Positions 33,504-61,782 of a stretch of DNA of 64,000 nt are shown piece by piece. The stretch is from Lingula anatina (lineage: Eukaryota > Animalia > Brachiopoda), in assembly GCA_051362555.1 (NCBI GenBank), contig CM120642.1, positions 2,418,001-2,482,000 on the forward strand. The letters are read 5' to 3'. Made by a program: the position numbers and the translations under genes. Under the pieces are notes generated by a model, which was given only the letters and a program-made list of their open reading frames with translations, did no database searches and was not told the DNA's origin. Within the stretch, counting starts at the first letter, position 1, and each line of letters starts with the position of its first letter.

Positions 33504-33579
33504 ACTAATACGAGACCAATTCTTGCCTTTCATTTAGGAAGAACTAATACGAGACCAATTCTTGCCTTTCATTTAGGAA
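33504..33579 (+). repeat. Exact 37-bp duplication (39-bp period) resembling a branch point-polypyrimidine-AG acceptor
   Basis: actaatacgagaccaattcttgcctttcatttaggaa occurs twice. Confidence 0.85.
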
Positions 33580-34990
33580 AAACTTCATAGAACCAACCAT
33601 ACGTATGTTGGCAGCATACAGCTTTACTTATATTTTGTACATGTAATTCTCACACATCAAATGAAGTGCTGTATTGCTCCACTAATATTTCTGTAATTCT
33701 TACAATTTTTTCTATGGTATATCTTTACATTTGTGCTTAAATTGCGATCAACAATTCACGGCTTAATTATGCTTTTGTCAGAGAAGCAACCAGATAATGT
33801 TAAACGCTGTCACAATCTAAAAAAAGAAGTTCGGGTTTCTTTAGTTTCTTTTGCTTTCTGCCACACATCAAATATCTATGCACGAGCTAAGCACGAGCGC
33901 ATCATATCTGTACTTACTTACAGAGATGCTTGTTTCTGAAGCAAGGTGTTCTGTCCTTTTACTTTTTATTTTCCTTTTCCTCTTTTCTCTTTATCAATCA
34001 CCTGCGTCGGAACCCTTTAACGGTCGAATTGTTTTAAAATTGAACATTACCTTGATTTTAAAAACGCAGTAGCTGTTATGAAGTGCCGTGCTGCAGGAGT
34101 GCAACAACTTAGTGAAGCGTTGAAAAAGCTAGGACTGTCGGGGACCCTTTTTCTTGCGGGTAGGACTATTATTTGCTAAAATGTAAAACTAAGCTTTCTT
34201 TTTATATTCTTTACCTGCTGCAGCTTTTATCTTTGAAATGAAAGCTCTTACCAAAAGTTGAAGGCATGGGATTGCTGAACAGTCTCCGCAAGGTTTCAAA
34301 TAAGTAGCACAACAGCAGGAAATTATTTGTTGGACTTTCAACAATTTGAGAAAGGCGTAAATGATCACTAAGATTTTGAGTCAAGGCTCAAGTGAGGCTA
34401 TAGATTTGTTAATGATCTTTCTTTTTTAAGCTGCAGCAAGCACTATACTGTTCTACCATTCACAAAGATAATGAATACATGTCTACGTGTGCACATTGGC
34501 AATAGGCTCCATAACCATCGATTTTTTTCAATTTCTAAGAAAATCGCTTAAATCGTAAAGTTTTGAATTTCTTCATTTTACATGTTACATAAATGACCGA
34601 ACAGAAAGGTGCGTGACCTCACTATATTCATCATTTTGCCCAATGCAGTGTATATAACTGTACTCGATAGATATGCACGTATATTTTGTTTTGTCGCCAC
34701 GTCGGCTTACAAGCTTAAGGTTCGATCCTAATATAAAGAGCCTGCGGTGGAAATGGCCTTCGGTTAAATCTACGATAAAAAGACCTGCTTAGCTGTGCAA
34801 CAGGTAAAAATGAACAAAGAAACCGCTGCGTCACATGCAGATGGCAAAGGTGTGAGATTACATTGGTTATTGGCATGAGAACCTGCCGGCAATGACGTCC
34901 ACACAACCAACGTATTTTCTGAGGTTTTGATTGACAATCACATTTCACAAGCGTCAGTCGAAGAACTAAGTCACGACATTGCATACAGCA

Positions 34991-40148: not shown

Positions 40149-41358
40149 TCAGTCTTCTCCCTCGTCAGGATTCATGTATTTGTTCAGGTCCATGACATCT
40201 TTCAGTTCCTCGCTCTTCACCATCTCTGAACACATGGGGCAGTTCTCTTCTGTCTCCAGTACACTAAAATAAACATGTGGAAATTATTTGGTAGATAGAC
40301 AAATTCATAGTTCAGCTATTATTTAAGAGCCAAGTAATAAGCACTCCCCTCAACGTGGCCAGTAAACAGGATTATTGGTGATCTGTCCAAACAATGGAAT
40401 TCAGAAAGTGAACTGGTGAAAGGGGTTGTCCTGTACTACTAATGCACGGCTCATATTTGATGTATTTCTTTTCAAAACAGCCTATGTGGTAGAGAAAATC
40501 AACAAATTAAAAAATAGCACTTTCACTCCAAAAAACGCTGATGTGGCATCTTCAGCAATATGACTAACTTTTTCTGAAGACAAATAATGAAAATTACATG
40601 GAATTATTAAAACGACCAGTTTGATATAGTCATTTTCAACCAGATTCTGGCTAACAGGGCATATAAACGTAATAACCACTGAATTGTAGGCACACATGCC
40701 AGAAGGTACACAGACAAAAGGAAAGACAGACAGACACTTAGACAGACAGTGAACATACCTAAGAAACTCATCCTTGAGAGCAGGGAAATCACACCTGGGG
40801 CATGCTGTCACATTGTCCTTCGTCATGTGGCGTCCCTGCAAATATTCACGATAATTAGGCCATTTAGCTTTGAATGTACAACTTTTATCTTATTATCATC
40901 TAGATATAGAACCATCCCAACTATTGTTGCTTTGCCAGAAGTTTTTCCATTTTATCTGATGATTTTGAAGGTAGGTTCTATCAAGTTGAAAAAAAAAAAC
41001 TGACTGAATGAAAAGGTAAGTCAACTCACAGTAATGATACAGTATGGAATGTTATTCTTGCAGTTGGGGCAGACCAGCTCTGTCTCTGCCTGGGCGTACC
41101 CACACTGGGGACAGGGGGTCGTGGGCTCGTCTTCCTCTGTTTTATCAGGTTTTCTGTAAAACATAATGTGATCAGTTTCTTTTAGCTGCCTATATAAAAC
41201 ACAAATTTAGGATATCATATATCATAACAAAGCAGCTTACATGCCATAAGATGATGGTTTCACAAAGCCCTTCCTAAATTATACAGGGTGCAGCAAGGTG
41301 CTTAATTTTTTTTTTTTTAAACCCATGTGAAACAGTCCGGTCATCTGACAGGGTTGAA

Positions 41359-41393
<35 letters not shown>

Positions 41394-42945
41394 ACATTTG
41401 AGATCACTCAAGGAAATATATTTATTACAAGATTAATAAAAAAGTTATATGTGTCTTTGAATGCATGTACTTTTTTCATACTTTGAACCTCTGATATTAT
41501 ATATAAGATTCATTCCACTTTTCTTCTTGCATTTGACAAAACATCCTGCTCAGTGTTTATTTTAACTCAAATCCACAAAATGATACCACCTGCATTAGGA
41601 CTGAGAGAAATTCACACTTTCCGAGGCATCAATTTTCCTGTTTCCCGTTTTTCACACTCTGAGACATCAATTTTCACTTTCTGTTTTTCACACTTTCGAA
41701 GACACTTTCAATTTTGACTTCCCGTTTCCTGTTTTTCACTCAGCTCCTTAAAACACTATCTCTTGAATCTTGTGCACCACTTACCTCACTATCTGTTCTA
41801 TTTTCTTCTTGTATTTCACATCTATCTGGTTTCTGTACTCTGGTCTCATCAGCATGGCTGCATAGCTGAAGCAGGAATTCTTCAGTCCTGCCTTGTGGCA
41901 CTCTATCACAGTGGACGTGAGAATCTGGACAATATCTGAAAATACAGAACTCAATTCATTTACAACTGAGAACTTGAACTTTCAGATATTCATATCTTTG
42001 AATTCTACACTGGTCAATGATACAATCTTAACCAATATTAACAATTATTAAATGACTTTTATCTAAAAATATATGTTATTACTTAAACCAAACTGCTACT
42101 TTTAAATGGGAATAAGAAACCCCAAGTTGTCATCAGTCAAATTTTTAAGCAATTTAAAGATGCATTCAAGGTCAAATTTTGCCACAAACTAATTCATTTC
42201 AATTACTCCAATTAACTGAAGAAATACTGTCAACTGAAATCGGCCATAATTAATATTAAAGTTAAGACTTCTACTTACGAGAGGGAAATTTGCTGATGTT
42301 ATTGGCCACACGTATCAACATCCTGGCCCCTTTGAGATGGTCCCCTCTCTTAACATGAACCTGAGGCCAGACACAGTAACATGTTTAATAAAAGGTCCCT
42401 TAGTTAAGACATATATACATTATATATTATATAAAGTGTAGCCTAAGATGACACAGGAATCACTCATTACATGACCACACAAACTCTACAGACATCATTC
42501 TAGGCTGGTCAAGTGGCAACACATTCACACCTACATCTAACTCTGCAATAATATTTTTCATAACGTTCATAATTTCAATCAATTCAGTCTTCAATATGTT
42601 AACAAGCTTCCCAGAGCTGATATATTATGCTTCTGTTTATTAATTATTCAAAATAAAATATAAAAAATTTCAGCAAGTACAAATAATTTCAGCAAATACA
42701 TTATTAGAGCAAAAATTAAATGTAGATAATTTACTGCCCAGGAAACCTATCCAGTGTAAACTATGTGCCCTGTCACTGTTCATTCAGGTATGTTGAGGTC
42801 AAGTTCTTACCTTTGCCAGTATATAACTGTGAAGAATCATTAAGTTATGAGCCATTTCTGATGGGATCTTGATTTTCTGCTGCTTCAGTTCCTGGTACAT
42901 GCTGAACAGAACATCATGGGCATCTCGGTAGTTTCCTGACAAAAA

Positions 42946-42992
<47 letters not shown>

Positions 42993-45900
42993 AGTCCAGT
43001 TAAAGAAAACAGGCAAAATGTAGTGCTGTTACATCTTTGCCATTCCCAGTACTATATCATGACACCACTTGACAACATCTCTTTCTGCTTATTAAGCTCA
43101 TATCTGCAGGCAATGTGAAAACTTGATTCAGTCTAAGTCATATCTCTTGAGATTAGAAAGTGACCTAAATAACCAAATGCTAGGGTGTGACTGGCCAGGA
43201 AAAAAAAGGAAATAGAATTAGAAACAGGAAAGTACAATGAACCATATTTGTAATGCCACTGACAGCTGATGCATGCATGGGTTCTTACCAGCATTCTGCT
43301 CCTCCCTGGCTATGATAATGGCTGTTCTGGCAGCCTCCCTGAACTGTTTCAGTGCCATATACAGGCGGAACAGGTACTTGCTGGCCTGGAATGGGACAAA
43401 TAGGAATGCATGAGATATAACTGGCATTGATATTAATAATATTAAATACTCTCTGTGTTGAAATAATGTTTTCAATCATGCTGTTAGACTTCTTCAGAAA
43501 AGAAATCGTGTCTTGCAAAATATCATAATTATCATAAGAAGACAGTGAAGTCATGTCAAAAAACATTATATCTTAGTTTAAAGTAATGTAATATGAATTG
43601 TAAGACAGTCAATGAAAGTCTGCCTCACCTTTAAGTTGCTTTTATGTAGTAATTTTGAAGAAACACCCAAGAACATTAAGGACATTTAGTGAAAAAACCA
43701 ATCTAGATAGACAGTCATTTACCTTGGGCACACCATCTGTTTCTCCCAGTAGATAATCAAACAGCTGATGGGTGAGAGCGTCATCATTGGCCTGCCCCAC
43801 TGTCTCTATGGCCATCCCTATTGCCTTACTATCATCACTGTTAGAACAGCGCAGGAAATGTTTGAGAGCCTAGAAGACAAAGAAGATAAGGAAATCATTT
43901 ATAAACATTATTATTACACTTAAGTGGTGTCCTGCAGAACAACTAAGTACATGCATTGCGTTAAAAAACTAAGAAATTTAATCCCATTTTTTTTTTGACC
44001 TACTTAAAAGTAATCTTTCCTTTCTACTTAAAAGATACATTGATTTCGCACAAGAAATAAAAATGAGTTGTGTGTATTTATGACCTTAGTGCGTGCGTGT
44101 GTGCGTGCATGTGTGTGAGAGACAAAAAGCAAGCATGTATTTGAGCAGGAACAGTGTCTACCAAATTCTTACCCTTCCATATTGGGCACACAAGAAGAAA
44201 AACTTCCCAGCCAGGAAGTGGTTCTTTTCATTCTCAAAGTACAGGGCAATACTCTGGTAGTCCTCTGCAGTGGCATCAGAGCCTGGAATATACATATTCT
44301 AAATTACTTTGTCACATATTTAGGTTTCTTAAACCTTCTGTTCATTTTTTAAACATTTTTTACTTAAACAACCCGTTCAAAAATAAATAAATAAATGGAA
44401 TATGAAATAATTCATAAACTTAAGCTACCTTAAACTAAGTACACCTACAACCAGCAATTGCATCCTTACTCTTCCATTTCACCACATCTCTTTTAAGGTG
44501 TAAATATCATCCAACAGAAAAGGAAACCTTGAATACCTATAATCTCTGCATACACTTCCATCTGATCATGTTGCTGTGCCAGCTGGAAGGCCTCATCATT
44601 GCACTTGGACATCACTAGGAACTGGATGGCAGACGCATAATCATTCAGCTTCAAGAAAAACCTGGATAGAACAAGAACCTGCTGTGTAATAAATGTAACA
44701 CAAGTGCTATATTTCAAAATAACATTTAAAAATTACAATGAAATAAGATATTCTAATAATCAATGATTACAATAAGTAAAAACCTCATATGTCAAAGCAA
44801 ACATATTGTTAGGATGCTGTAGCTAGTGGTATCCCAGTGACTTACTTAGCCACCATCTTGGCTCCCTCCACTGACTGTGTTTCCCTTACTATCCTCACTG
44901 CATCTTCTGGGTTCTGGAGGTGATCCAAGTTGATCCTAAAAATAATAACATCACACAGAGTAGAATTACATATCTCTATTATTACAGTCTGTGTCAAAAT
45001 ATTTCTTAGCCCGCAGGTCCTTTGAGTATAAAATTCTAAGAAGAAATAAGGTCCACTAGCTGGACAAATTCTTATACAAAATAGTTACACATTTTTCTTC
45101 TCAGCTTTAACTTGACTTGCATTTGGTGTGGGGACAAAAGTTGACACTAAGGACTGATATTAACAGGTAGCATGGTAGCAATAAACACTGAAAACTGGCA
45201 GAGAAAATATAAGACAACCCATGTATTGCTTTCAACTTGATGTGCAATATATTAATCAATAACTGGTCTTTATTGTAATGTTGTAAGATGACAAAAAGTA
45301 CAAGTAGTGTGCATCTCAGGTTATCTCACACTAACAACTCAGGTGATAATTACAAAACAATTGCTTCAGAACAGTGGAGTACACCTTAGTTTTTATTACT
45401 CAGGGTTAAGGTGTTTAATACTAAAACCTCTTATCCTGGAACAAGTGTCATGGACATTGCAATTCACACCTGATATTTTGGGACCTGCTCAGTCACGGAG
45501 CATTCTAAGGGACTACACCAATAAGACAGATAATTAATTTTTAGTTGAACAAGTAAAGGCGATAGAGCCAGTTCTGGGATAACATCCTATATACACATCC
45601 GCAATCAATAATTCATTATCACTTGAGTTGTAAACTTGACTGAAACAGTTCTAGGCTGCACATCCTTTATATCTTAACCTTGACATCCTTGAAGTTATTC
45701 AATCCAGAGTATCATCAAGTACGTGTAACAGCAATAATTTAGTTTGCTATCTACCTGATGACACTGTCCCAGTCCTTGGCATTCTCATACGCCTGTGCTG
45801 CCTCCTTGTAGCGGCCATCTGCCTCCTTAGCCTTGGCATACTGGGCATGGATCTTAGGGGAGGTCACCTGGGGGAGCAGCTCACCAACCTTGGCCCTGGG

Positions 45901-48900
45901 GAGAACACAGTTCCACACATTTATCTGCCAGTTTTGCTACTTGTTTATTGTACTTCAGACCATTAAGTATAACACAGTTACTTTCCTATATCAGCCAGTG
46001 TTAGATACTAGTTTATTCAACTTGCAACCATTAAGTATAATATGTAAAAGAGAAAAGAATTAAAGTAAATATTATATTTACAACAGTAATTATTATAAAC
46101 TGACATGAATCACATGCTTCCCTTTACCTCATCACATGTCCGATATAACCTGCTAGTTTACACTGACAGTAAGTTATTATCAGGATTTATTAGTAATAAT
46201 GATAATAAAAAAATTGAAGAAGAAGAAGAAAGAGAACCACAATATGGTTAGTCATACTTCATATAGTATTTACTTTCTTTTTCGTGACAGTAATTCTATA
46301 GGTATTATGATAATAATAAACATCTTACCAGTTTTTGGACCTAATGTAGACAGCCGCAGCCTTGTCATAGTAACCACCTTTCTCATACAGCATAGCAGCC
46401 TCAGACCATTGCTATAATGATAATTTTAAATAAATATATAAATAAACAAAATAATAAAAATGAACAAAAATGAAAATTGATATTTTTTATATATCAAAAA
46501 AATGCTGCTTTGAAAAACGTATTGCAACTACCTGTGGTTTGACAAGGACAAGAAGTTTTAACGTACTCGTAAACATAATAAATTTTAAATTTTCTTTAAA
46601 TTACCAAGCCATATTATCCCTTTTCCACCATATGTATGAACTTGTAATTTGCAAGTCATGCCACTGTAACAACTGAGCAACTGGTTTAATATAATATGTT
46701 AACTATTTAAATGCTGAATTCTCATAGAATACATAGTGATTAAAAAAGTAAAATATTGGGCTAATTCCCATACCTTCATGTTTTCCAATATCTGTGCACA
46801 ATCCTTCTTCAGTGCTCTTCCTGGCATCTGTACAGCCATACCTACACCCCTGGAAATATATAGGAGAATATGATAATACAGACATAGTGCATATGTACAG
46901 CCATACCTACACCCCTGGAAATATATATATAGGAGAACATGACAATACAGACATAGTGCATATGTACAGCCATACCTACACCCCTGGAAATATATATAGG
47001 AGAACATGACAATACAGACATAGTGCATATGTACAGCCATACCTACACCCCTGGAAATATATATATAGGAGAACATGACAATACAGACAGTGCATATGTA
47101 CAGCCATACCTACACCTCTGGAAATATATATAGGAGAACATGACAATACAGACATAGTGCATATGTACAGCCATACCTACACCCCTGGAAATATATATAG
47201 GAGAAAATGACAATACAGACATAGTGCATATGTACAGCCATACCTACACCCCTGGAAAAGTATAGGAAAATATGACAATATAGACCTAGTGCATCTGTAC
47301 AGCCATACCTACACCCCTGGAAAAGTATAGGAGAATATGACAATATAGACCTAGTGCATCTGTACAGCCATACCTACACCCCTGGAAAAGTATAGGAAAA
47401 TATGACAATATAGACATACCTCCTGATATCCCCAAGTCTGATGGACATCCTAGCCACCCCGGCAGCACAGTTCTCGTCATGTTCCCTGTACGCCTCCTCC
47501 TTGGTGATCCCCTTCTCATAGTGCATCAAGGAGTTGGTGTAATCCCCAGTGAACTCCAGCTGCTGGGCATACTCCTTGGAGATGAACGGGATCTGGTCGG
47601 GGGCCAGCGCCTTGGCCAACTGCAGTGCAGAGTCCCAGTGCAGCAGGTCCCGCCGCATCTGGAAATTGAGGAGATTTATTCATTAAGGTGAATTGAAGAA
47701 AAAAATACTGCAGCAATGTTAAGTTGAAGATTTTCACTTCCCAGGTTTGACAAATAAATTGAATAAAATATACCAAAGAGTGTGATGTTAAGTGAACACC
47801 CAGATCTAAAATTTAGTGATTAATTCATAAATCTGTTTCAACATATCACTTAAAATAATAATGATAATAATAATTTTTAAAAATAATGATGATAATAAAA
47901 TAAATAATAATCATTAGTTACCTCTAGAGCAGCTTGAGGATTACTGGAGGCCAGAAACAGATCCTGAGCCCTGTTAAAGTCCTCAGTAAACATAGCTATG
48001 TAGCCAGCCAGCAGATTTCTGTCCTCAGAGTCCTTGATAGCCTGCAGTGACATCACCATCCCCACATCTCCTATCTGTCTGTACACACGCATGGCTGCAA
48101 GGGACAAGATTTAATCAGAATGTCATAGACATGTTTTGTTCTACCAAGGTGGCAAGGCAATTTCTTTAGCTCCTATTTGTATGCACACGGCTAGAAATGA
48201 AAGAAAGAACTTTGCTGGTTTCAGTGAAAATAATGGTTGAAATAGTTTAATATTGGTAGCATCATTTCTTAAACAACTGTTAGTGTGAACAAATACCCTT
48301 TGGTTTAGATAACTGTCTAAAATTCAGCAACATCATTTTAATGTTTTTTTTTACCAAAGTCTATCTCCAGATTATAGAGGGCAGCTCTGCCCAGGTCCAG
48401 CCAAGACTCTCTGGAGTCCAGGTGAGCACTGAGGGCCCAGGCGTCCTTGTATCTCCTCAGTTTTATACACTGGTCTAGAGCTGTCTTCACCTAGAACACA
48501 CACAGGAAATGATAGCAGTGCCAGGTTCACATACTAGTGAATACTATAACCTTTGTGTAAGTGCACACACACACACCAAAGGACACCAGTAAGTTACCAC
48601 AGAAGATGCTGCAGTGTTACGCCACTCTTTTACCAACAGTTATGTGAATACGTTTAGAATTTCATTCAGACTAGTTTGACTGAGGGCAAGATGAATAAGT
48701 CACCATCACTGTTTGTGACTTGATTCTATATCTAATGGCATTACATCACATTTTTGTTATCATTATTTATTTTTAATATGTATGATTGAAGAATATCTTT
48801 CCTCTCCTTTCGACAAAATTAGTTAGTACATATTCATACAGGCAATGTGTTGCCACAATTTCATCAATTTAGTAAACTGTAATAAGATCTTATATTTTAT

Positions 48901-51900
48901 ACAAAAATAACTTTCATTTCACTGATTAAAGTCTTCTGTGCATTAAAACATTTCAAGTAAGTAAAAGCCTGTGGTAGAAAAATATCATATGCAGATACAG
49001 ATAATGTTATTAATACTAGTGGGAATGCAAGTAATAATTTCACTTACATCAGCAGGAGGCATCTCCTGTAGGTTTCTGCCATCAAAGCTGTGAGTGTCTA
49101 GGACCAAGTTAGAGGTCTTCCCACTCTGTGTCTGCAGGGTGACCTCTCCATTGTATAACAACATAGGCACCTGGCCATAGGGCAGCTTAGTGACCCCTAC
49201 CAACTCACATACTGACTCTGCAATAGGATATAATATCACATTAGGGCAGCTTAGTGACCCCTACCAACTCACATACTGACTCTGTAATAGGATATAATAT
49301 CACATTAGGGCAGCTAAGTGACCCCCACCAACTCACACACTGACTCTGTAATAGGATATAATATCATATTAGGGCAGCTTAGTGACCCCCACCAACTCAC
49401 ACACTGACTCTGTAATAGGATATAATATCATATTAGGGCAGCTTAGTGACCCCCACCAACTCACACACCGACTCTACAATAGCACAACTCACTATATATT
49501 TATCTCATTTTAGTTAGTGAATTTAAAGTTTATATAATTGTACAATCCAACTTTTTAGTTGCAATGAACATTATAAAAATATTATTTTCTGTTAGTTTCA
49601 AATAAAAATTGGTGTTAAAGACCAGCCTGTTGAAACCTTACATACACACTATATATAGTCACAGGTACCACATATTTAGTTTGGTAAAAAATACCCAATG
49701 TTTTCATCACAGTGTCATATGAAAAAAATAAAAAAAAAAAAACTCAAAATAACCTATAAAAAAGTGACTTTGACTTTTTGAAATAATATAAAGAGCAAAA
49801 AATTTAAACTTCATATACATTTTACATTTGTGCAAAATAAAATGCATCATCCACCTTACCATTGACTGTTTCTCTGCAGTAAACATTTGTGTACAATTTC
49901 TCCTCATCAAAGGCCACAAAAATTCCCTACAACAAAAATAAAAGATTTGCACAGATCATCAAGCACACTTTGTGAAAGGAAATGTTTTTTAAAGTTGTAA
50001 AATATTTTATGGAAAGCTGTTACATATGGCATCAGGACACTATAAAATGGATCCCTCCTCTTCCTGCGATGAATTTATAATGATCATTTTAAAAATGAAC
50101 AATGTGCTGAGAATTTCAAAAATATGATAAGAAGATATTATATTACAGTGAAATTTTTGATTTCATTGGACATTTCAATACATCATAAATCTATGCACTT
50201 TAAATGATAAAATAAAAATGATTAAATATCTGCAGTTAATATATCTAAAATACCTTGTCACTTAACCAATTTTCCCACAGGATGCCTTTGGTTGTTGGTG
50301 AGAAATCTGGTATTTCTACCACCTGGTCATTTACCTAGAATAACAAAACCATTGTATGAAAAATTAATCCTAAGATCAAGTAAACAGTTCAATAAACACT
50401 TTCTATACTGTAAACTGAAGTGCCATTCCGGACAAACTATTGCATTTGTTTTTTCTAGACTAAGTTGCCACCTCTTTTCATTTCAATCTCAATAATTCAT
50501 TCTTTTATTTTAAGCAAAACTTGTAGGAAGCCAACATGCTGGACATCAAAACTGCATCATCTCTTCTTGTTTTTCATAAAACCTTGTAGACATATAATCA
50601 CATAGATAGGGGCCATTAGCTAGTAAACAGATAAGATAAACTGCTCCCCACCATGCAACTTTCACAGTTCAGTGGGACATTATCATCAATTTCCGGATAC
50701 AACTTACAGGGTTGTAAACAAAGCCATCACTCTTATCATCAATGAAGATGATTCTAGTTCCAGTGGGATCCACAAATATCTTCCTGATTCCCACCATGTG
50801 TCTGTACTCATTCACATACTGCCAGTCCTCAATGAAGAAGTAGTGGAGGCCCCCTGACTGAAATAACAGAAGACTCTAAGCTGGTATTTTATGGACATTT
50901 AATACCGTATTTGAGCTTTACCCTACAGATTGTGATTATAAATATCGACACATTATTTTTATACTCTGTTTAACAATTGGTACTTTTAAATTTGGCACAA
51001 CATTATCTCCCAAAGTTCATTTTAAATATAGTAAGTGGAGAAAACACTTGCAAGTGATTTGCCTAAGAGGCAGTTAAAATCTGGCTCTAACTGGCTAAAA
51101 GGGCTGTTACTCTCCTGGTTTCTTAACTTTGAGAGACAGTCAAATGAAAGCATTCAAGTCTTTTCTATTTTCTATGTTATTCTTTGAAGAATTAGTGGAG
51201 CCCACCGAGTACTTATTTAAAATTGATATCTTAGCAACTGAATCATAAAATAACTAAATCTACATCTTGACAACAAAACGACCACTTGCTGTACAAAAGC
51301 AGATGTCAATATGACTTGTGACAAAGTGATACACATACTCAAGCAAACTGACCATTGTAAATTGACCACTTATGTAAAAAGAAGAGTTAATACAAGTGCC
51401 TGATAAAGAAAAAACATGTCTCTGCACTGCATGTAATAGTGACTAGCCCCATCTTTAACATACATTTAAAAATAGGATTGATAAAAAGCCACTGTGACCG
51501 TGTGATTTTATCTGAAGACTACTTGATGTGACAAAAGATGCCAAGAAAATTATGAAAATTAACAGAAAAGAACAAGACAGAAAAGCAATAAACCTTTTCC
51601 AGATTATACTTTACACAAAAATTAATATAAAAATAATTACCTCTCCCTTATTTTTCTGAGGAGGAGTAGGAAAAGACTTAAATATGTGGCATGGAAAGCA
51701 TGTTACATCCCAATTAAAAATTCTTTGTAAATACCCCATATGGTTTTTGAACTCGAAATTCATCAGATGAACTACTGGTATTCTTTTCATCTAAAATTAC
51801 AACTTTCTTTTTGTTAATCAAATTAAAAATTTTAAGGGCCTACTTACATCTGTCCCAAATATGAGGAATTCTGGGGTGAGGCAGTGACAGGTGATCTTGG

Positions 51901-52092
51901 TGTCAGCCTGGTCCTTGTCTGGGAAGAGGCGGGTCTCCCTGTCATCAGATGCACCCTGGTCACCCTCAATCTGGAACACAATCACAGGAATCTCAACTAA
52001 CACAATCAAAGCAAGGGCAGCTCAAATAATGTCTCTACTCATTCAAGTTTTATTTTTGTTTTGTATTCACAGCAGAAGTTGTAGTTTAAATA

Positions 52093-52183
<91 letters not shown>

Positions 52184-55100
52184 AATGAGCTCGTATTATA
52201 ACATTTCAAATTGGTTACAAAAAATCATACTGGCTTATTCATCAACAAGGCATAAATTTGCAGAATAAATGCCCCTAATTTTACAACTTAGTCTCTGTCT
52301 CCATAAAAGATAATTTCTTACCATGTGTAACTGCACTTTTCCCTCAAACCTGACAGCAGCATAGTCTGCATTCATCTTCAGAGACTGCACAGTGCCCAGG
52401 TATTCTCTGTCCTTTAACTTCTCAGGGGGAGCCCCAACTGGTAGAAGACAAACATATAAAGACATACTTTATAAATAAATAAAATAATATTAAAATGTCT
52501 AAAACAAGAATAAATGTATGTCCTAGTAATTTGTGAATAACAACAAAATATTCAATTTGTTCAACATGTCCAGGTTATCAAGTAGTATCTTAGTCTATCT
52601 AAATTATCATTATTATTGCTGTTGAATGTTTTTACCTTCACAATCCAAGACATAAAACCATGCCCTGTTAATACCTTCACAATCCAAGGCATAAAACCAT
52701 GCCCTGTTATTACCTTCACAATCCAAGACATAAAACCATGCCCTGTTATTACCTTCACAATCCAAGACATAAAACCATGCCCTGTTATTACCTTCACAAT
52801 CCAAGACATAAAACCATGCCCTGTTATTACCTTCACAATCCAAGGCATAAAACCATGCCCTGTTATTACCTTCACAATCCAAGGCATAAAACCATGCCCT
52901 GGTATTACCTTCACAATCCAAGACATAAAACCATGCCCTGTTATTACCTTCACAATCCAAGACATAAAACCATGCCCTGTTATTACCTTCACAATCCAAG
53001 GCATAAAACCATGCCCTGTTATTACCTTCACAATCCAAGGCATAAAACCATGCCCTGTTATTACCTTCACAATCCAAAGCATAAAACCATGCCCTGTTAT
53101 TACCTTCACAATCCAAGGCATAAAACCATGCCCTGTTATTACCTTCACAATCCACGGCATAAAACCATGCCCTGTTATTACCTTCACAATCCACGGCATA
53201 AAACCATGCCCTGTTATTACCTTCACAATCCACGGCATAAAACCATGCCCTGTTATTACCTTCACAATCCACGGCATAAAACCATGCCCTGTTATTACCT
53301 TCACAATCCAAGGCATAAAACCATGCCTTGTTATTACCTTCACAATCCAAGGCATAAAACCATGCCCTGTTATTACCTTCACAATCCAAGACATAAAACC
53401 ATGCCCTGTTATTACCTTCACAATCCAAGACATAAAACCATGCCCTGTTATTACCTTCACAATCCAAGGCATAAAACCATGCCCTGTTATTACCTTCGCA
53501 ATCCAAGGCATAAAACCATGCCCTGTTATTCATGCCCACAGCCAGGTGATAGGGTCCTAGGCCAATGAAGGCTGGCTCCACATCAGCTGCCAGCACTATA
53601 GGGGCATCCTGGAGGACAGAGAAGGTATAGCAATAAGTTTCCAAATAAAAATTTTAACTCAGTAATCCATGAAAGAAAATGGAACAAAAAGCTACTTGCT
53701 GACTCCACAATAAAATATGCACATGCTCAAGAATTCAACTTACATCAAAAAAATAAAATCAAACTCACTGCATCACTTCAGAATCTAGATATGCCTTAAA
53801 GTCAGCATAAACAACATTAAACACAATATCTCTCATTTTTCAACACAACGAAAATGGCTTGTTTAAATCGCGACCCAACAAACTTTCAACTTATGCATAA
53901 CATCAACTAATATCAGGCACATTTTCAAAAATGGTCAGTAACTTCGGCGAGAGATTCATCTGATTAAGTTACACATTCACACACCCACACGTATAAGTGC
54001 TTATCTATACAAATCTGTAAAATATTACTCACCCCGGACACATTATCCTGTACTGTCACCTCCAGCAGAGAAGTCAGGTAAGCCAGCCTGGTGTTATATG
54101 TATCAAACACCATGGGCAGCTTGGTCAGGTAAACATGGAGACTGCCCGCCTTGGTGGACACGGCCAGGAGCTGACCATCATCTGTCCAGTTAATTTGGCC
54201 CAGTTGACGCTCATCGTCCAGGTTCAGAATAGCATAGGTTTCCTTCAGGTCCGATAGTTCATGGATCTTCACACTGAAGATACACACATGGGCATGTATT
54301 ATATATAATGGCAATTATACGAATTTTATCTTTTTGTAGAAAAGAAGCAGAAAATATATGTTCTTGGATTCAACTGATGGAGCTTTGAGTTCAATTGTTA
54401 AAAGATTAAAAAATACTTGTAATCTGCTTTGAGAATCAGGTACAAAATATTTAAAACTAATAAGAGAGACACTCCAAATAAACAAGATAAGACATTATTG
54501 AACATTTTTGCCAAGAGGAAAAAAATCAACATCCTCATCTACTCACATGTTGTCTCCACAAGAAGCAGCTTTGTTCAGGGACAGTGTGATGGCTATGGAG
54601 GTTAGGTTGTCTTTGTGGTTACGAGCCTGGAACAGCTCCTGGTAGAAATATTAATTAATGAATTTTACAATAGTTTAGTTCACGTTTAATAAATGAATAT
54701 TTTAAAAAGTTCTTCAAATTTGTTGTCAAAGAAAAGAATTCAATGTGATTACTGCAGTGTAATTATTAACTTCAACATGTTTTTATGGCAAAATTACATA
54801 TAAAGTTATCATCAAAATATTTAGACTAAATACAGCTAACAGATTCATTATTTATGACCATGGGGACAGTATAAATTCAGTCAAACATTAAACCCAGTGA
54901 TTGTTCTAAGTATACAGTTAAAAAAATACCAATGAACAAGAAAACTGCATTACCACCTGCTAGCATAGGATGTGAAAAATGATATTTACCAAAATTCTGT
55001 CTCTGCGTAACAAAGTGTTAACTGAAATAAGCTCTACCTACCTGTCCAATCTCCTTCATATGTGTGGAGATAACTACAAAGAAACCCTGTGAGAAACCAA

Positions 55101-58100
55101 TCATGATGTAGCCATCACCATACCTGAAAGAGTTTTGAAGTCATCTTAAAACACATCAGATAGGTCAACTGAATACCATGAATCCTAATAAAAAAGTTTG
55201 ATAAAGGGCAACACTATGTGATGTCAGGACTTCCATTTTTAATGCAACAAAAGCATTTCAACATATTAAATATCAATAGTGATGCAATACAACCTTGAAC
55301 TAGAGGATCAGAGAGGCGATACCGCCTCCGAATATTGTACCACCAGCTGGAGCAAGCGCATTCGTATAGAACCCCACATACACAAAATAAGGGACACAGC
55401 CACCAGTTTTGTGCTTGACAAGCTGTAAATATGCAATCAACAAGAATTTTTAAACTATTGCAAAAAATATATATGGTACAATCAAATTTAAGTTCTTCGT
55501 AAGGTAGGTCAAGGGTCAATTTCAAGGTCACAGTAAATTGCCAGTATATGACTTCCTATTCAAGTTCAAGAGTAACTATGGACCTATCTCTGTCAAGTTT
55601 GAAGTTAAAAGAGAAAGAAATTAGCAGAGTTCAGTTCATGATAAAAAGTAGGTCAAAGGTCAATTTCAAGGTCACATTTAGATTGCCAGTATATGACTTT
55701 CTATTCAAGTTCAATAGTAACTATGGACCTATCTCTGCCAGTTTTGGAGATAAAAGGGAAGCAAAATTTGCAAAGTTCAGTTTATGGTGAAAAGTAGGAC
55801 AAAGGTCAATTTTTATGTCACATTTATAATGCCAGTATATGACTTCTATTCAAGTTCAATAGTAACTACGGACCTATCTCAGCCAGTTTTGGAGATAAAA
55901 GGAAAGCAAAATTTGCAAAATTCAGTTTATGGTGTAAAGTAGGTCAAAGGTCAATTTTAAGGTCACATTTAGATTGCCAGTATATGACTTCCTTTTCAAG
56001 TTCAATAGTAACTATGGACCTATCTCTGCCAGTTTTGGAGATAAAAGGAAAGCAAAATTTGCAAAGTTCAGTTCATGGTGAAAAGTAGGTCAAAGGTCAA
56101 TTTCAAGGTCACATTTAGATTGCCAGTATATGACTTCCTATTCAAGTTCAATAGTAACTATGGACCTATCTCAGCCAGTTTTGGAGATAAAAGGGAAGCA
56201 AAATTTGCAAAATTCAGTTCATGGTGAAAAGTAGGTCAAAGGTCAATTTCAAGGTCACATTTAGATTGCCAGTATATGACTTCCTATTCAAGTTCAATAG
56301 TAACTATGGACCTATCTCTGCCAGTTTTGGAGATAAAAGGGAAGCAAAATTTGCAAAGTTCAGTTTATGGTGAAAAGTAGGTCAAAGGTCAATTTTGAGG
56401 TCACATTTAGATTGCCAGTATATGACTTCCTATTCAAGTTCAATAGTAACTATGGACCTATCTCAGCCAGTTTTGGAGATAAAAGGAAAGCAAAATTTGC
56501 AAAATTCAGTTCATGGTGTAAAGTAGGTCAAAGGTCAATTTTAAGGTCACATTTAGATTGCCAGTATATGACTTCCTATTCAAGTTCAATAGTAACTACG
56601 GACCTATCTCAGCCAGTTTTGGAGATAAAAGGAAAGCAAAATTTGCAAAATTCAGTTCATGGTGTAAAGTAGGTCAAAGGTCAATTTTAAGGTCACATTT
56701 AGATTGCCAGTATATGACTTCCTATTCAAGTTCAATAGTAACTATGGACCTATCTCTGCCAGTTTTGGAGATAAAAGGGAAGCAAATTTTGCAAAGTTCA
56801 GTTCATGGTGAAAAGTAGGTCAAAGGTCAATTTCAAGGTCACATTTAGATTGCCAGTATATGACTTCCTATTCAAGTTCAATAGTAACTATGGACCTATC
56901 TCTGCCAGTTTTGGAGATAAAAGGGAAGCAAAATTTGCAAAGTTCAGTTTATGGTGAAAAGTAGGTCAAAGGTCAATTTTGAGGTCACATTTAGATTGCC
57001 AGTATATGACTTCCTATTCAAGTTCAATAGTAACTACGGACCTATCTCAGCCAGTTTTGGAGATAAAAGGAAAGCAAAATTTGCAAAATTCAGTTCATGG
57101 TGTAAAGTAGGTCAAAGGTCAATTTTAAGGTCACATTTAGATTGCCAGTATATGACTTCCTATTCAAGTTCAATAGTAACTACAGACCTATCTCAGCCAG
57201 TTTTGGAGATAAAAGGAAAGCAAAATTTGCAAAATTCAGTTCATGGTGTAAAGTAGGTCAAAGGTCAATTTTAAGGTCACATTTAGATTGCCAGTATATG
57301 ACTTCCTATTCAAGTTCAATAGTAACTATGGACCTATCTCTGCCAGTTTTGGAGATAAAAGGGAAGAAAAATTTGCAAAGTTCAGTTCATGGTGAAAAGT
57401 AGGTCAAAGGTCACTTTCAAGGTCATAGTAAGATTGCCAGTATCTGACTTCCTATTCAACTTCAATAGTAACTATGGACCTATCTCTGCCAGTTTTGGAG
57501 ATAAAAGGGAAGAAAAATTTGCAAAGTTCAGTTCATGGTGAAAAGTAGGTCAAAGGTCACTTTCAAGGTCATAGTAAGATTGCCAGTATATGACTTCCTA
57601 TTCAACTTCAATAGTAACTATGGACCTATCTCTGCCAGTTTTGGAGATATAAGGGACTAAATGTTATAATTTTGGAGTTACCATAATGTGCCTTAAATTT
57701 CGTACAGAAAAAATTAATTAAAATAAAGAAAATGTCATTTTGGTCAAATTTCTTGAAAAAGGAGGTGCTCTGAAGTTTCAGAAGTTCAAATTTGATGAAA
57801 TAATGTCATTTTTGAACACAAGTTGTCTGCTTTGCCAAGCCTTATGTTTTATTTTTCCAGAGTTCAAAATTTATTATCCATTACCGTACTGCACATTTTG
57901 CTTTTACCACCAATATGTACTTTTTGATACAGCGTAACTCGAAAACCGTATGGAATACAAAAAAACCGAGACCACCTCCAGTGTTGGGCTTTACATGCTC
58001 TACAAAATGCAAAAAAGAATGGGTCTCTAGCATTAACGGTTCCCGAATTAGAGACAGTTTTCAGTTTCGGTATCTTATGGCCGCTACTCCCGTGAAAATG

Positions 58101-61100
58101 CACCGATTGACCCCAAATTCATGGAGATGAAAGATGACCTGAAGGGTAACACCTTCCAATAATATTATTGGTTAAGTCTGTGTGGTGTCTGAATAACAGG
58201 GCAAAAAAAATTTTTTTCGTAAAAAATTTCATTTTTTTGAAAATTTTGGCCCATTTGACCTTGAAGTAAAGGTCAAAGGTCAAATCCAAGGGTATATTTG
58301 AAATCTACACATATGACTTTTGGAAAGCCGTCTATAGAAATTTTTCCCATAACTCCTTCCGTAGGGTAGATAATTAGCATTTAATTTTGCCATTTTTAGA
58401 CAAGGGTGCATTGCAATGAGTGCCACACCCAGACCCCAATACCGACAAAGCCCAAATTTTACGTGGAACGAGTTGAGATTATAGGTGACCTAAATCCATG
58501 AGGTGGGTACGGGGGCCCTTACCGTCTAGGAGGAGAAGCGGTAACGGTAGCCGTCCGGCGGAGCCGGCGGAGCCAACGGAGCCGGCGGAGCCGGCGGAGC
58601 CGGCGGAACGATCCGGACGGGACCGAAACCATGTGTACCGCCAGCGCTAACGCTGGTGGTACAATAATATTCCAATACATCTGTTCTAACAATTTTATTC
58701 AAGAGGGATATGCTTATATGTCACTTTCAATTCTTATACATCCTCACCATTTATAGGCCACAATGCTTCCATATCTCTGCTGAAATGCCAGCTCTATGGG
58801 ATTCTCTGGATCATTGATGTTGTATAAATACAAAGTCTTCCTGCCAATTACTATGCTAACCTGTAATATAATAACCCAAATTATGAAAGCTGAATTAGCC
58901 CCACCCCATTCCTTCTCCCATCAAGCTCTTTTATTATGATGGGAATCATACCAGACAGCCTAAATCATGGCTCTTGACACCATGTGATGTCGTAAGTGAC
59001 TATAAAACATGCATGATTCTGAGCAGTGGGTGGCTTTCACTTTTTTGTAAATTTTTTGCTTCACTATTTAGCACATAGTATATGGTACATATCTGACTGT
59101 TGAGGTAATGAGTTATATGAATGTCCTGTCACCCTTTCCTTGCTTAAAATTGCTTGTACTTTTGGATGTAATGATCAAGAAACTTTTCAGCACTTTCAGC
59201 TTACATTATTGCTCCAATTGCTCTCCAGGGACAAGTTCGGAAATATTAGTGATAGAAACCTACCGTGTTATCCCCCATCTGACTCCTTTCATCCCCCTTC
59301 ATCTCAGAGAACTGGATGTCACTGGGCTCAGCACGGAGGTTGGTCTGGCGTATGGTGTCCCCCTCAGCGTTACTGATGGTCAACGTGTTGTCCTGGCTGC
59401 CCAGGGCCAGCAGGTTCTGACTACTCCAGGCCCCACACGTGATCTTCTTAGTGTGCTTGCCCAGGATGGGGATTTTTCTGAAACCATATAAAGATATCAG
59501 CTACGTTTGCCAAGATGTGTCAGATTAACTCAGGGATGAGACTTCCACTTAGTGAAAAGGTCAGAAAATATGGCGTGGGGTCCAGGCCAATGATATTTTT
59601 GGCTCCCCAAGAGTCGTAAATCTGCTTATAGTCAGAAAAATCTTATCCCTGTTAACTATCAGTATTAAACTTTCAAATGAATGATATTTTTCACTAAAAC
59701 AAAAGTCCCAGTGTACTTGATGCTGTTGTTTAAGGATTACCGTATATCTTGAGATTTTGCAGCTTATTGTGATGCCTCACCTTGATGTCTGATGATTGTA
59801 TATCATCAAGTTTCCTTTGGCCGTTCCTATGGACAGCTGTTGACCTGTCTTTGACCACAGCAGGAAGGTTAGACTGTCCCTAGAAAAGTATAAGACATTT
59901 CCTGTCTTTTAAGTCATTTCAATTATAAAGAACATTAAAATGCCATTCCACTTTCTATAAACATATACATAACTAATAATAACATTCTGGACACCAATAC
60001 TTTCAACAAATCACAATTTAATTATCTTTAAATTATATGCAAAGCAGTAACAGCCAGTAACTTGAATGATTAATCAAATAACATTTAAGTTTTCAAAATA
60101 ATGTATCATATTTTAATTATCAGTTTTTCCTGTATTTTAGACTGTAAAGTCTATTGAACATATTTTGAATATAGACTCTAAATATTAATAATAAGAAGAA
60201 GAGGAAGAAGAAGAAGAGGAAATAAATATAACTAGATGGTTGCCTATAAACCCACCTGAGTCCACTATCCAGCTGTGACAGTCTCGCTGAATTGGCGTTC
60301 CACAGGAACACAACACCCGTCTTGTCATTAATGATAGCAAGGACGTCACCATCCACATCCCAGCCAAACCCAGTACACAAACTTCAATGAAATAGAAAAG
60401 GCAAGAATGTCAGTGATCTTATGTGAATCTGAGCTTAATGAAGAAATGCATCTAGAACTTCATACAGGCAGAGATTTTTAATGTGAAAAAAATTTTTTTC
60501 TTACATTTTTAGAAATATAAAATATAAATGTGGCTATTATTTTTCATCATTATCCCTCTAACAACTCTCTCTCCCTTTAAAAATTACTTTTAAATTGACT
60601 AATTACCCAGGGAGGTTTATTTCTTCTCTAAGTTCTCCATGACGGTCAAAGATCCTCACATTGTGATCAAATCTGAAATAATCATTTGACAATTTATAAA
60701 AGCAAGAATCAATCATACAGACAAAAGCTGAAATGGCAGATTTAGTGGCTTAATTAAATGGCTTAATTATGTATGGAACCATTCATTCAATAACTTCCTA
60801 ATATTTTTTTCTATTTTACAAATAAATAAATAAATATGCTTTACTAGATGGAATATCTAGTTAATGAATCTTCTTTTATACTGTATTGCTTTCTAGAATA
60901 TAATACAGAATTATATTATAACAAGCAAGATTTGCCATGCAAGCCATATTTTACTCTAGAACTATTTTAATTACCCTGTAGTGGCCAAATAATTCCCCAA
61001 AGACCTCTGCCATTGGTAAAATATCCCCCCTGGTCCATGAGTCTTCTCATTCAGGGTAAATACTCGCTGAAATTAAAATTGAAGAATATAAAATGGACAA

Positions 61101-61782
61101 AACAAATGCAGATCGCCTCCTGAACTTGTACAAGTCAGTCGTTAATTTTCAATTTTTATTTTCATTCACTTAATGGAGTGGGTTTAGTCATCTAAATGTC
61201 TCTTTCATTCAAATAAATTAATTTTGCAATTTTACTTGCCTGAAATGACTTCAGCTCTTGTTAACTTAAATGGATTTGAAGTTTCCAGTAAAACAGCAAA
61301 AAAGTGAATTCCCAAAGTAATATGAAAAGCAGAGACATTTATCAAAGTCGCCACAAAAATGAATAAAAAATAAAATGAAAAAAATTAACAAAGACTTATG
61401 ATCATAAGTTGGAAAGGAGCACATTGCACTTGTTAAACTGCAGCATACTGCATAAAGATTACAATTACGTCCTCTGTGTGTGTGTGTGTGGGTGGGGGGG
61501 GGGGGGGGGACTATTTTCAACTTTTTTCTGCCGTGCGGACCTGTCACCACTTGTGTTCACTTGTATAAATAGGCCTTAGTTTGTGACTTATTTAAGTGAG
61601 TGCTTAAAACTTAATTCACTTTTTAATTATCAGATTGGAAACCCTAAGTTATCGCATTTGCCATTTGATTTGGCTTTGGGTTTGAAGGGCCGGTCACATT
61701 ACTTGACCTGCAAATGCATAAATAAAAACCTTAACGTTGCTACACTTTCTGCATAATAGCACTTCAGTTCACTTACCTTCAT
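40149..61782 (-). CDS. WDR19: WD repeat-containing protein 19 / intraflagellar transport 144 (IFT-A core), ~34 coding exons
   Basis: Exon 1 ATG AAG|gt (61782-61777). Exons encode [21 protein letters not shown]...[31 protein letters not shown]...[62 protein letters not shown]...AIIIAREEQ and GRHMTKD...CPRCDFPA, colinear with vertebrate WDR19; stop TGA at 40149-40151. Confidence 0.97.
46823..47419 (-). repeat. 65-69-bp x9 tandem array making up an entire WDR19 intron (46850-47419); 9 acceptor copies
   Basis: Minus-strand unit: (t)atgtctgtattgtcatgttctcctatatatatttccag|GGGTGTAGGTATGGCTGTACA(T/G)ATGCAC. Acceptor AGs at ~46850, 46915, 46984, 47051, 47118, 47185, 47252, 47317, 47382. Confidence 0.95.
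49178..49481 (-). repeat. 64-bp x~4.7 tandem array amplifying a WDR19 3' splice acceptor (5 acceptors)
   Basis: Unit atatgattatatatcctattacag|AGTCAGTGTGTGAGTTGGTGGGGGTCACTAAGCTGCCCTA; AGs at ~49218, 49282, 49346, 49410, 49474. Confidence 0.95.
52095..52182. repeat. (GT)n microsatellite
   Basis: Uninterrupted GT run. Other microsatellites: (TA)n ~7410, (CA)n ~31560, (AAT)n ~32414, (TAAA)n ~41358 and ~42945. Confidence 0.95.
52634..53530 (-). repeat. 39-bp x23 tandem array amplifying a WDR19 exon end plus GT donor, in frame and stop-free
   Basis: Unit AATAACAGGGCATGGTTTTATGCCTTGGATTGTGAAG|GT ([13 protein letters not shown]); 897 bp = 23 x 39; ORF 52613-53644 is open throughout. Confidence 0.97.
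55300..58668 (-). mobile_element. Helentron-associated non-autonomous element (HINE / DINE-1 / pearl-like) carrying a satellite array, in a WDR19 intron
   Basis: Subterminal inverted repeats tattgtaccaccagc (55333-55347) / gctggtggtacaata (58652-58666); hairpin 58634-58663 at the 5' end; (ccggcggag)n microsatellite 58555-58607; 3' hairpin gaggcgataccgcctc (55313-55328); terminal CTAG (55300-55303) next to TT on the minus strand. Confidence 0.85.
55503..57655. repeat. 146-bp satellite, ~14.7 monomers, inside the HINE
   Basis: gtaggtcaaaggtcaattt...cagttcatggtgaaaa recurs every ~146 bp (55648, 55794, 55939, 56085 ... 57545). Confidence 0.97.

What the first reader, a model, noticed from the sequence alone, without database searches (positions are those of the whole stretch)
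52634..53530. 23 in-frame alternative donors in WDR19: potential length dial of [13 protein letters not shown] repeats
Seen: the unit is 37 exonic nt plus GT, exactly 13 codons with no stop, so almost every copy regenerates GAAG|GTAATA. The distal copy has GAAG|gtaaaa followed by unique intron, so it is probably the ancestral donor. All donors join the 52437 exon in the same phase. The proximal donor (exon end 53494) gives normal WDR19; the distal one (52636) adds 22 x 13 = 286 aa inside the WD40 region. NMD cannot remove mis-chosen products. Each unit also has AG|GT, formally a ratchet-like site though without a polypyrimidine tract. Inference: either a strong first-donor rule operates, or a ladder of isoforms of an essential ciliary protein is made.
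Basis: partly seen in the sequence, partly recalled or inferred. Interest (0 to 1): 0.8.

Follow-up and report, generated by a model that had tools for sequence, protein, structure and literature searches.

The report
Silent repeated splice donors, brachiopod WDR19
In a lamp shell's cilium-transport gene WDR19, the end of one exon and its splice signal are repeated 23 times in frame, but almost all informative RNA reads carry a single copy, so this is likely an ordinary, tolerated example of a known repeat type ("mirage") rather than a protein-length dial.

Summary
A 39-bp unit (37 exon bases plus GT) stands 23 times at 53530-52634 in intron 11 of a WDR19/IFT144 gene identical to the NCBI Lingula anatina protein; all 23 donors are in frame and stop-free. 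The length dial is not supported. In RNA reads from 8 of 9 listed runs, 38 of 41 listed loose-end reads go unique exon, one unit, next exon. No read lay on the last copy. Three reads (run X3) were placed at donor 2, but fit two places and by depth arithmetic probably cover one unit. Copy variants look neutral (5 replacement:2 silent, against 1:34 in real exons). Three more splice-site arrays in the window have out-of-frame periods, so one in-frame case is what chance gives. This is an exon-intron boundary minisatellite like human F7, CBS, IFI6 and lancelet "mirages"; the scan already reported such arrays elsewhere in this genome and others. Caveat: the RNA comes from other animals, not shown to carry the array, and no DNA reads were laid. 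Low interest; useful as an NMD-independent test of first-donor choice.

The parts
52634..53530 (-). Minisatellite, 23 x 39 bp; unit = last 37 nt of exon 11 + GT; copy 1 is the real exon end, copies 2-23 are intronic
53494..53608 (-). WDR19 coding exon 11 (115 nt, aa 378-416), in the second beta-propeller (PF15911, aa 360-637)
   Evidence: RNA joint 53607-54032
53488..53496 (-). Donor used in RNA (exon end 53494, AAG|GTAATA, 7.67 bits); positions +3 to +6 are supplied by the next repeat copy
52636..53455 (-). 22 spare in-frame donors, one every 39 nt (53455 ... 52636); no unambiguous use seen
52438..52633 (-). Unique remainder of intron 11 (whole intron 53493-52438, 1056 nt, phase 1); begins with a 6-of-7 match to the unit's first bases, a likely seed for the first duplication
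   Evidence: flanks; seed role inferred
52322..52437 (-). WDR19 coding exon 12 (116 nt), the single acceptor that all donors would join
40149..61782 (-). WDR19/IFT144 gene, 34 coding exons, 1347 aa, 0 mismatches to P0001 (NCBI name: WD repeat-containing protein 19 [Lingula anatina])

Best explanation
The array is a run of 23 copies of an exon end plus its GT, and the sampled mRNA carries one copy, so the 22 spare donors are likely silent passengers removed with the intron. Shown: the anatomy, the single-unit mRNA, and neutral-looking variation among copies. Inferred origin: slippage or repair between two 7-base look-alikes 39 nt apart (one in the exon, one just inside the intron) duplicated the exon end, and unequal exchange or slippage then amplified it. 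Inferred selection of the donor: the spliceosome commits to the first adequate donor after the exon's acceptor (exon definition or 5'-to-3' scanning, as shown for human F7 IVS7), so the gene is unharmed and the array is tolerated. The period of 39 is likely chance.
For: (4 runs): 49 listed reads join exon 12 to one unit. All 29 listed loose ends beyond the unit are unique exon 11 (agreement 1.0). Depth is 0 on copy 23 (52640-52657), 0 at 52712-52715, and 0 in both intron stretches; 4 (X5) + 5 (X8) reads leave at 53494 into exon 12, none fitting two places. The NCBI model P0001 has one unit. Among 105 homologues with the motif, 90 have spacing 22 and none has a repeated unit. Copy variants are 5 replacement:2 silent (neutral expectation 97:20), against 1:34 for RNA SNPs in real exons, Fisher P=1.4e-4. 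First and last donors score alike (7.67 vs 7.30 bits) and 21 donors are identical, so position rather than strength must decide. The window's three other splice-site arrays have periods 37, 64 and 65; 11 of 12 spare acceptors tested and all four spare donors of the 37-mer lead to stops. Precedent: F7, LMNB2 and PDGF use only the first donor (PMC1557585); lancelet mirages do not disturb splicing (PMC3087553).
Against: Three X3 reads leave at 53455 (donor 2) into exon 12. They are flagged as fitting two places, and depth decomposes exactly as 3x37 + 2x18 = 147 bases, but read-level alignments were not seen. The RNA animals differ from the window at 35 listed exonic sites, and nothing shows that they carry the array. 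The 95% upper bound on longer forms is 7.6% (0 of 38), or 17.8% if the three reads are real.
Confidence: 0.82

Rival explanations
1. Leaky first-donor rule (IFI6/CBS type): donor 1 dominates, but donor 2 (perhaps 3) is also used at a low rate. The product escapes NMD and adds 13 aa, an extra hydrophobic beta-strand in propeller 2. It would be noise rather than regulation.
For: Three X3 reads at donor 2. IFI6 and CBS use two further pseudo-sites (PMC1557585 passage; PMC4526556 passage). Three echinoderm WDR19s carry 12-14 extra residues at this turn, so a short insertion there is tolerated.
Against: 0 such reads among 29 informative ones, which includes X1 and X2 from the same study as X3. Depth arithmetic fits exactly one unit per X3 read; a sum of 111 arises in 1.9% of random length triples. 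The RNA animals probably carry T where copy 1 has C (inferred from the 'cleanest' columns and the missing row at 52679), which makes short single-unit reads fit copy 2 better.
Confidence: 0.12
2. Regulated isoform ladder: cells choose among many donors to make IFT144 with 1-23 repeats.
For: All 23 donors are in frame and open; no variant makes a stop.
Against: No read on distal copies or spanning two units. Variants are unconstrained, and only 7 of 117 possible single changes give a stop, so their absence means little. In the model of homologue P0027 the unit equals turn + one whole propeller strand (E406-413) + turn, so many copies would add unpaired aromatic strands to an essential scaffold. 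No homologue among 105 has repeats.
Confidence: 0.03
3. The array is an assembly artefact (over-expanded), or so private to the sequenced animal that there is no splicing question in the population.
For: No DNA run was laid; no RNA read shows the array; no whole genome was available.
Against: Block-structured variants among copies, no N in the window, three further arrays of the same design in the window, and no intronic reads in the unique intron either, so the lack of array reads is expected.
Confidence: 0.03

Closest known systems
Human F7 intron 7 37-bp VNTR (PMC1557585: abstract, passages and section 11 read)
   Same: First unit spans the exon-intron boundary; identical donors are reiterated; only the most upstream is used, even where later ones keep the frame.
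   Different: The F7 unit is 4 exon + 33 intron bases in 5-9 copies; here it is 37 exon + 2 intron bases in 23 copies, and every donor is in frame.
Lancelet 'mirage' minisatellites: Adh3, globins BflGb6 and BflGb9 (PMC3087553: passages of abstract and section 16 read)
   Same: Tandem copies of exon-intron boundaries, on donor or acceptor side, in a marine invertebrate; several per genome; regular splicing not disturbed.
   Different: Brachiopod, not cephalochordate. Length polymorphism and somatic instability, reported for mirages, were not tested here.
Human IFI6 (6-16) intron 2 and CBS intron 13 minisatellites (seen only as passages in PMC1557585 and PMC4526556; the original IFI6 paper PMC306954 was not held)
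   Same: About 15-25 reiterated donors; for IFI6 the extra donors give protein isoforms, so a short donor ladder is already known.
   Different: There two further donors are used; here such use is not shown (three ambiguous reads).

Membership tests
Exon-intron boundary minisatellite ('mirage'; F7/CBS/IFI6 type) | Tandem array whose outer unit spans a real exon-intron boundary | tested here: met
   RNA joints
Exon-intron boundary minisatellite ('mirage'; F7/CBS/IFI6 type) | Splice signal reiterated in the intronic copies | tested here: met
   23 AG|GT donors, 21 with identical 9-mer
Exon-intron boundary minisatellite ('mirage'; F7/CBS/IFI6 type) | Mature mRNA mainly uses the outermost site | tested here: met
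   38 of 41 listed loose-end reads single-unit; RNA from other animals, whose array status is unknown
Exon-intron boundary minisatellite ('mirage'; F7/CBS/IFI6 type) | Copy-number polymorphism or instability between alleles | not tested
   the single run search was asked for RNA and listed no DNA run; no genome held
IFI6/CBS-type leaky donor ladder | Second or third donor used in mRNA | tested here: inconclusive
   3 X3 reads at 53455, flagged as fitting two places; 0 of 29
Coding VNTR / functional protein repeat | Copies translated and under purifying selection | tested here: not met
   no read on copy 23 or across two units; 5 replacement:2 silent, against 1:34 in exons
Recursive (ratchet) splice sites | Strong acceptor abutting a donor inside a very long intron (definition recalled) | tested here: not met
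   pyrimidine fraction 0.56 (5 of 33 true acceptors as low or lower), GAAG end shared by only 1 of 33, intron 1056 nt; intermediates not testable, as no intronic reads were laid
WDR19/IFT144 | Two WDR19 beta-propellers, TPR region, zinc-finger tail; best hits to IFT144 | tested here: met
   PF23389, PF15911, PF24762, PF23146 on P0001; PDB 8fgw/8bbf E 3.5e-11; window model = P0001

The most novel reading that the evidence does not exclude
In animals that carry the array, donor 2 or later is used in a stage- or tissue-dependent way, giving NMD-proof IFT144 isoforms with extra propeller strands in 13-residue steps at a turn where echinoderms also insert 12-14 residues. The three X3 reads would be its first trace, and a mirage repeat would be caught becoming protein.
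Probability: 0.07. Interest if true: 0.55.

Novelty: new member of a known kind. Interest (0 to 1): 0.16.

Why it matters
As it stands it is one more exon-edge minisatellite, a type described in humans and lancelets and already noted many times by this scan in this genome. Its modest value: all 23 donors keep the frame, so the absence of longer mRNAs cannot be blamed on nonsense-mediated decay. If the RNA animals carry the array, it is a clean natural case of first-donor choice among 21 identical sites in a lophotrochozoan. It also warns annotators that such arrays look like in-frame coding repeats.

Tried and rejected
(1) Whole genome: none held, so no genome-wide count of my own. (2) Run search: no RNA holder listed by index; nine raw-read runs came by species label only, and no DNA run was listed. 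(3) I planned to use the C unique to copy 1 (53498) as a donor tag. It was dropped: no row appears at the matching place, and the 'cleanest' columns suggest the RNA animals have T in the real exon (inference). I relied on loose ends instead. (5) Ratchet splicing, a coding VNTR and donor-strength ranking were each rejected. (6) The idea that the 65-bp array created a new intron 20 was rejected: ORFs from three other organisms' contigs (P0002, P0010, P0061) run into unrelated sequence right after the same residues, implying an intron there too. (7) No extended isoform was folded; the fold is of homologue P0027 with a 38-sequence alignment. (8) Literature: five searches. None of the 10 papers listed of 80 contains 'Lingula', which is not proof of absence from print. 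PMC306954 was not held. No supplements were opened.

Full report
Observation. The minus strand at 53530-52634 holds 23 head-to-tail copies of a 39-bp unit (TRF period 39, 23.2 copies, 97% matches). The unit is the last 37 bases of an exon plus GT, 13 codons with no stop. Each copy ends in a GAAG|GT donor; 21 share the same 9-mer, copy 22 differs at +4, and copy 23 continues into 196 bases of unique intron.

Gene. The exon matches human WDR19 residues 380-413 (PDB 8fgw, E 3.5e-11). A second exon retrieved P0001, named WD repeat-containing protein 19 [Lingula anatina] by NCBI. A 34-exon GT-AG model of the window translates to P0001 with 0 mismatches over 1347 aa, so the window is brachiopod DNA. 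The array lies in intron 11 (1056 nt, phase 1) and P0001 carries one unit. The site is in the second beta-propeller (PF15911). In an AlphaFold model of homologue P0027 (mean pLDDT 88.5) the unit corresponds to a turn, one whole strand (406-413) and a turn. Among 105 of 120 homologues that have the motif, the distance to the next conserved motif is 22 in 90, 23 in 9, 24 in one, 25 in P0001 and 34-36 in three echinoderms, with one not measurable; none has a repeated unit. All 23 donors give open frames of 1347 to 1633 aa, so NMD could not hide longer forms.

RNA test. Nine raw-read RNA runs were listed by species label; eight were laid, 6-30% of each read. One search used copies 22-23, the unique intron and exon 12 (X1, X2, X4, X7). 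49 listed reads (34, 9, 1, 5) join exon 12 to exactly one unit. The 29 listed loose ends beyond the unit (17, 6, 6) are all unique exon 11 at agreement 1.0. Depth is zero on copy 23, zero on the four bases that a two-unit read would enter, and zero in the introns. One search used exons 8-11 and copies 1-2 (X3, X5, X8, X9). 4 reads in X5 and 5 in X8 leave at 53494 into exon 12; X9 did not cover the exon. Against my reading, 3 reads in X3 leave at 53455, the second donor. The tool flags exactly three X3 reads as fitting two places. The depth of that bin (2.37 x 62 = 147 bases) equals 3 x 37 + 2 x 18, that is three reads of one unit each plus two at donor 1; X5 shows the same 18-base rule (72 = 4 x 18). 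A sum of 111 occurs in 1.9% of random length triples. The real exon in these animals probably has T where the window's copy 1 has C (inferred from the tables), which would pull short single-unit reads onto copy 2. I therefore read them as probably donor 1 but cannot exclude donor 2. Tally: 38 of 41 listed loose-end reads unambiguous; 95% upper bound on longer forms 7.6%, or 17.8% if the three are real (mates are not independent, so these bounds are optimistic). Main caveat: the RNA animals differ from the window at 35 listed exonic sites, and no read shows that they carry the array.

Selection and chance. The seven variant sites among copies are 5 replacement and 2 silent, close to the neutral 97:20. 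The 35 RNA SNPs in real exons are 1 and 34 (Fisher P 1.4e-4). So the copies are not constrained as protein. Donor scores from the gene's other 32 donors are 7.67 bits for the repeated site and 7.30 for the last, both mid-range, so position must decide. Of seven arrays with period 37 or more in the window, four contain a coding splice site (periods 37, 39, 64, 65). Random placement of one unit gives four or more with P 0.002 in the window and 0.012 within gene bodies. That test is post hoc, 36 of its 102 sites were placed by hand, and a gene at 3-7 kb was left out. Only one of the four periods is a multiple of three, as chance predicts. In the others, 11 of 12 spare acceptors and all four spare donors lead to stops.

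Mechanism. Shown: anatomy, single-unit mRNA, neutral drift. Inferred: a first duplication seeded by a 6-of-7 match between the unit's start and the intron's bases +3 to +9 (flanks), amplification by slippage or unequal exchange (block-wise variants), and tolerance because the spliceosome takes the first donor after the exon's acceptor. The same logic explains why the two acceptor-side arrays in this gene leave the last copy as the real one in model P0001. The working donor is itself a hybrid: its +3 to +6 bases come from the next copy, while the last copy keeps the old intron context.

Known relatives. PMC1557585 (abstract, passages and section 11 read) describes the F7 37-bp VNTR, where only the most upstream of identical donors is used, even though two later ones keep the frame. 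It lists IFI6 (25 pseudo-sites, two used), CBS (two used), LMNB2 and PDGF (none used). PMC4526556 (two passages) confirms three IFI6 mRNAs. [quoted passage not shown] The scan's own unreviewed notes report many such arrays in this genome and in-frame examples in other animals. I took the name 'mirage' from them and checked it in the paper; I do not count them as evidence.

Verdict. A real feature and a new member of a known kind; dial not supported. Best explanation 0.82, low-level leak 0.12, regulated ladder 0.03, artefact 0.03. Interest 0.16.

Noticed in passing
window 46824-47418 (-), WDR19 intron 20: A 65-bp array spans the acceptor (intron end + 26 exon bases) and makes up essentially the whole 570-nt intron. 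Without the copies about 40 nt would remain, far below the gene's shortest intron (184 nt), so the array may now be needed as intron filler. One of 8 spare acceptors (47050) is in frame and open (1414 aa); the intron position seems shared with other animals.
   Followed up: partly
window 49178-49482 (-), WDR19 intron 16: A 64-bp x 4.8 array spans the acceptor of exon 17; all four spare acceptors lead to stops. Not tested with RNA.
   Followed up: partly
window 23401-23600 (-): A 37-bp x 5.4 array of identical copies spans a donor (23578) of a multi-exon gene at about 15.6-29.1 kb (looks like an extracellular multidomain protein by eye, not tested); read-through meets a stop at once.
   Followed up: partly
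window 33504-33584 (+): A two-copy 39-bp repeat containing a pyrimidine run and AG, upstream of a GPCR-like ORF near 35.0-36.1 kb (by eye); possibly an acceptor-side duplication in a 5' UTR.
   Followed up: no
P0020, P0069, P0105 and P0001, at the exon 11/12 junction: Three echinoderm WDR19s carry 12-14 extra residues at this turn, possibly a microexon; the Lingula protein has 3 extra residues there relative to most homologues.
   Followed up: no
window 54032-55123, RNA runs X8 and X9: These libraries differ from the window at many silent sites (20-22 listed places each, up to about 5% in places), more than X3 or X5. X1 and X3 show three or more haplotypes, so they are probably pooled animals.
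   Followed up: no
window 55504-57656 (-), WDR19 intron 7: A 146-bp x 14.8 purely intronic satellite next to a repeat-like element; it contains no exon edge.
   Followed up: no
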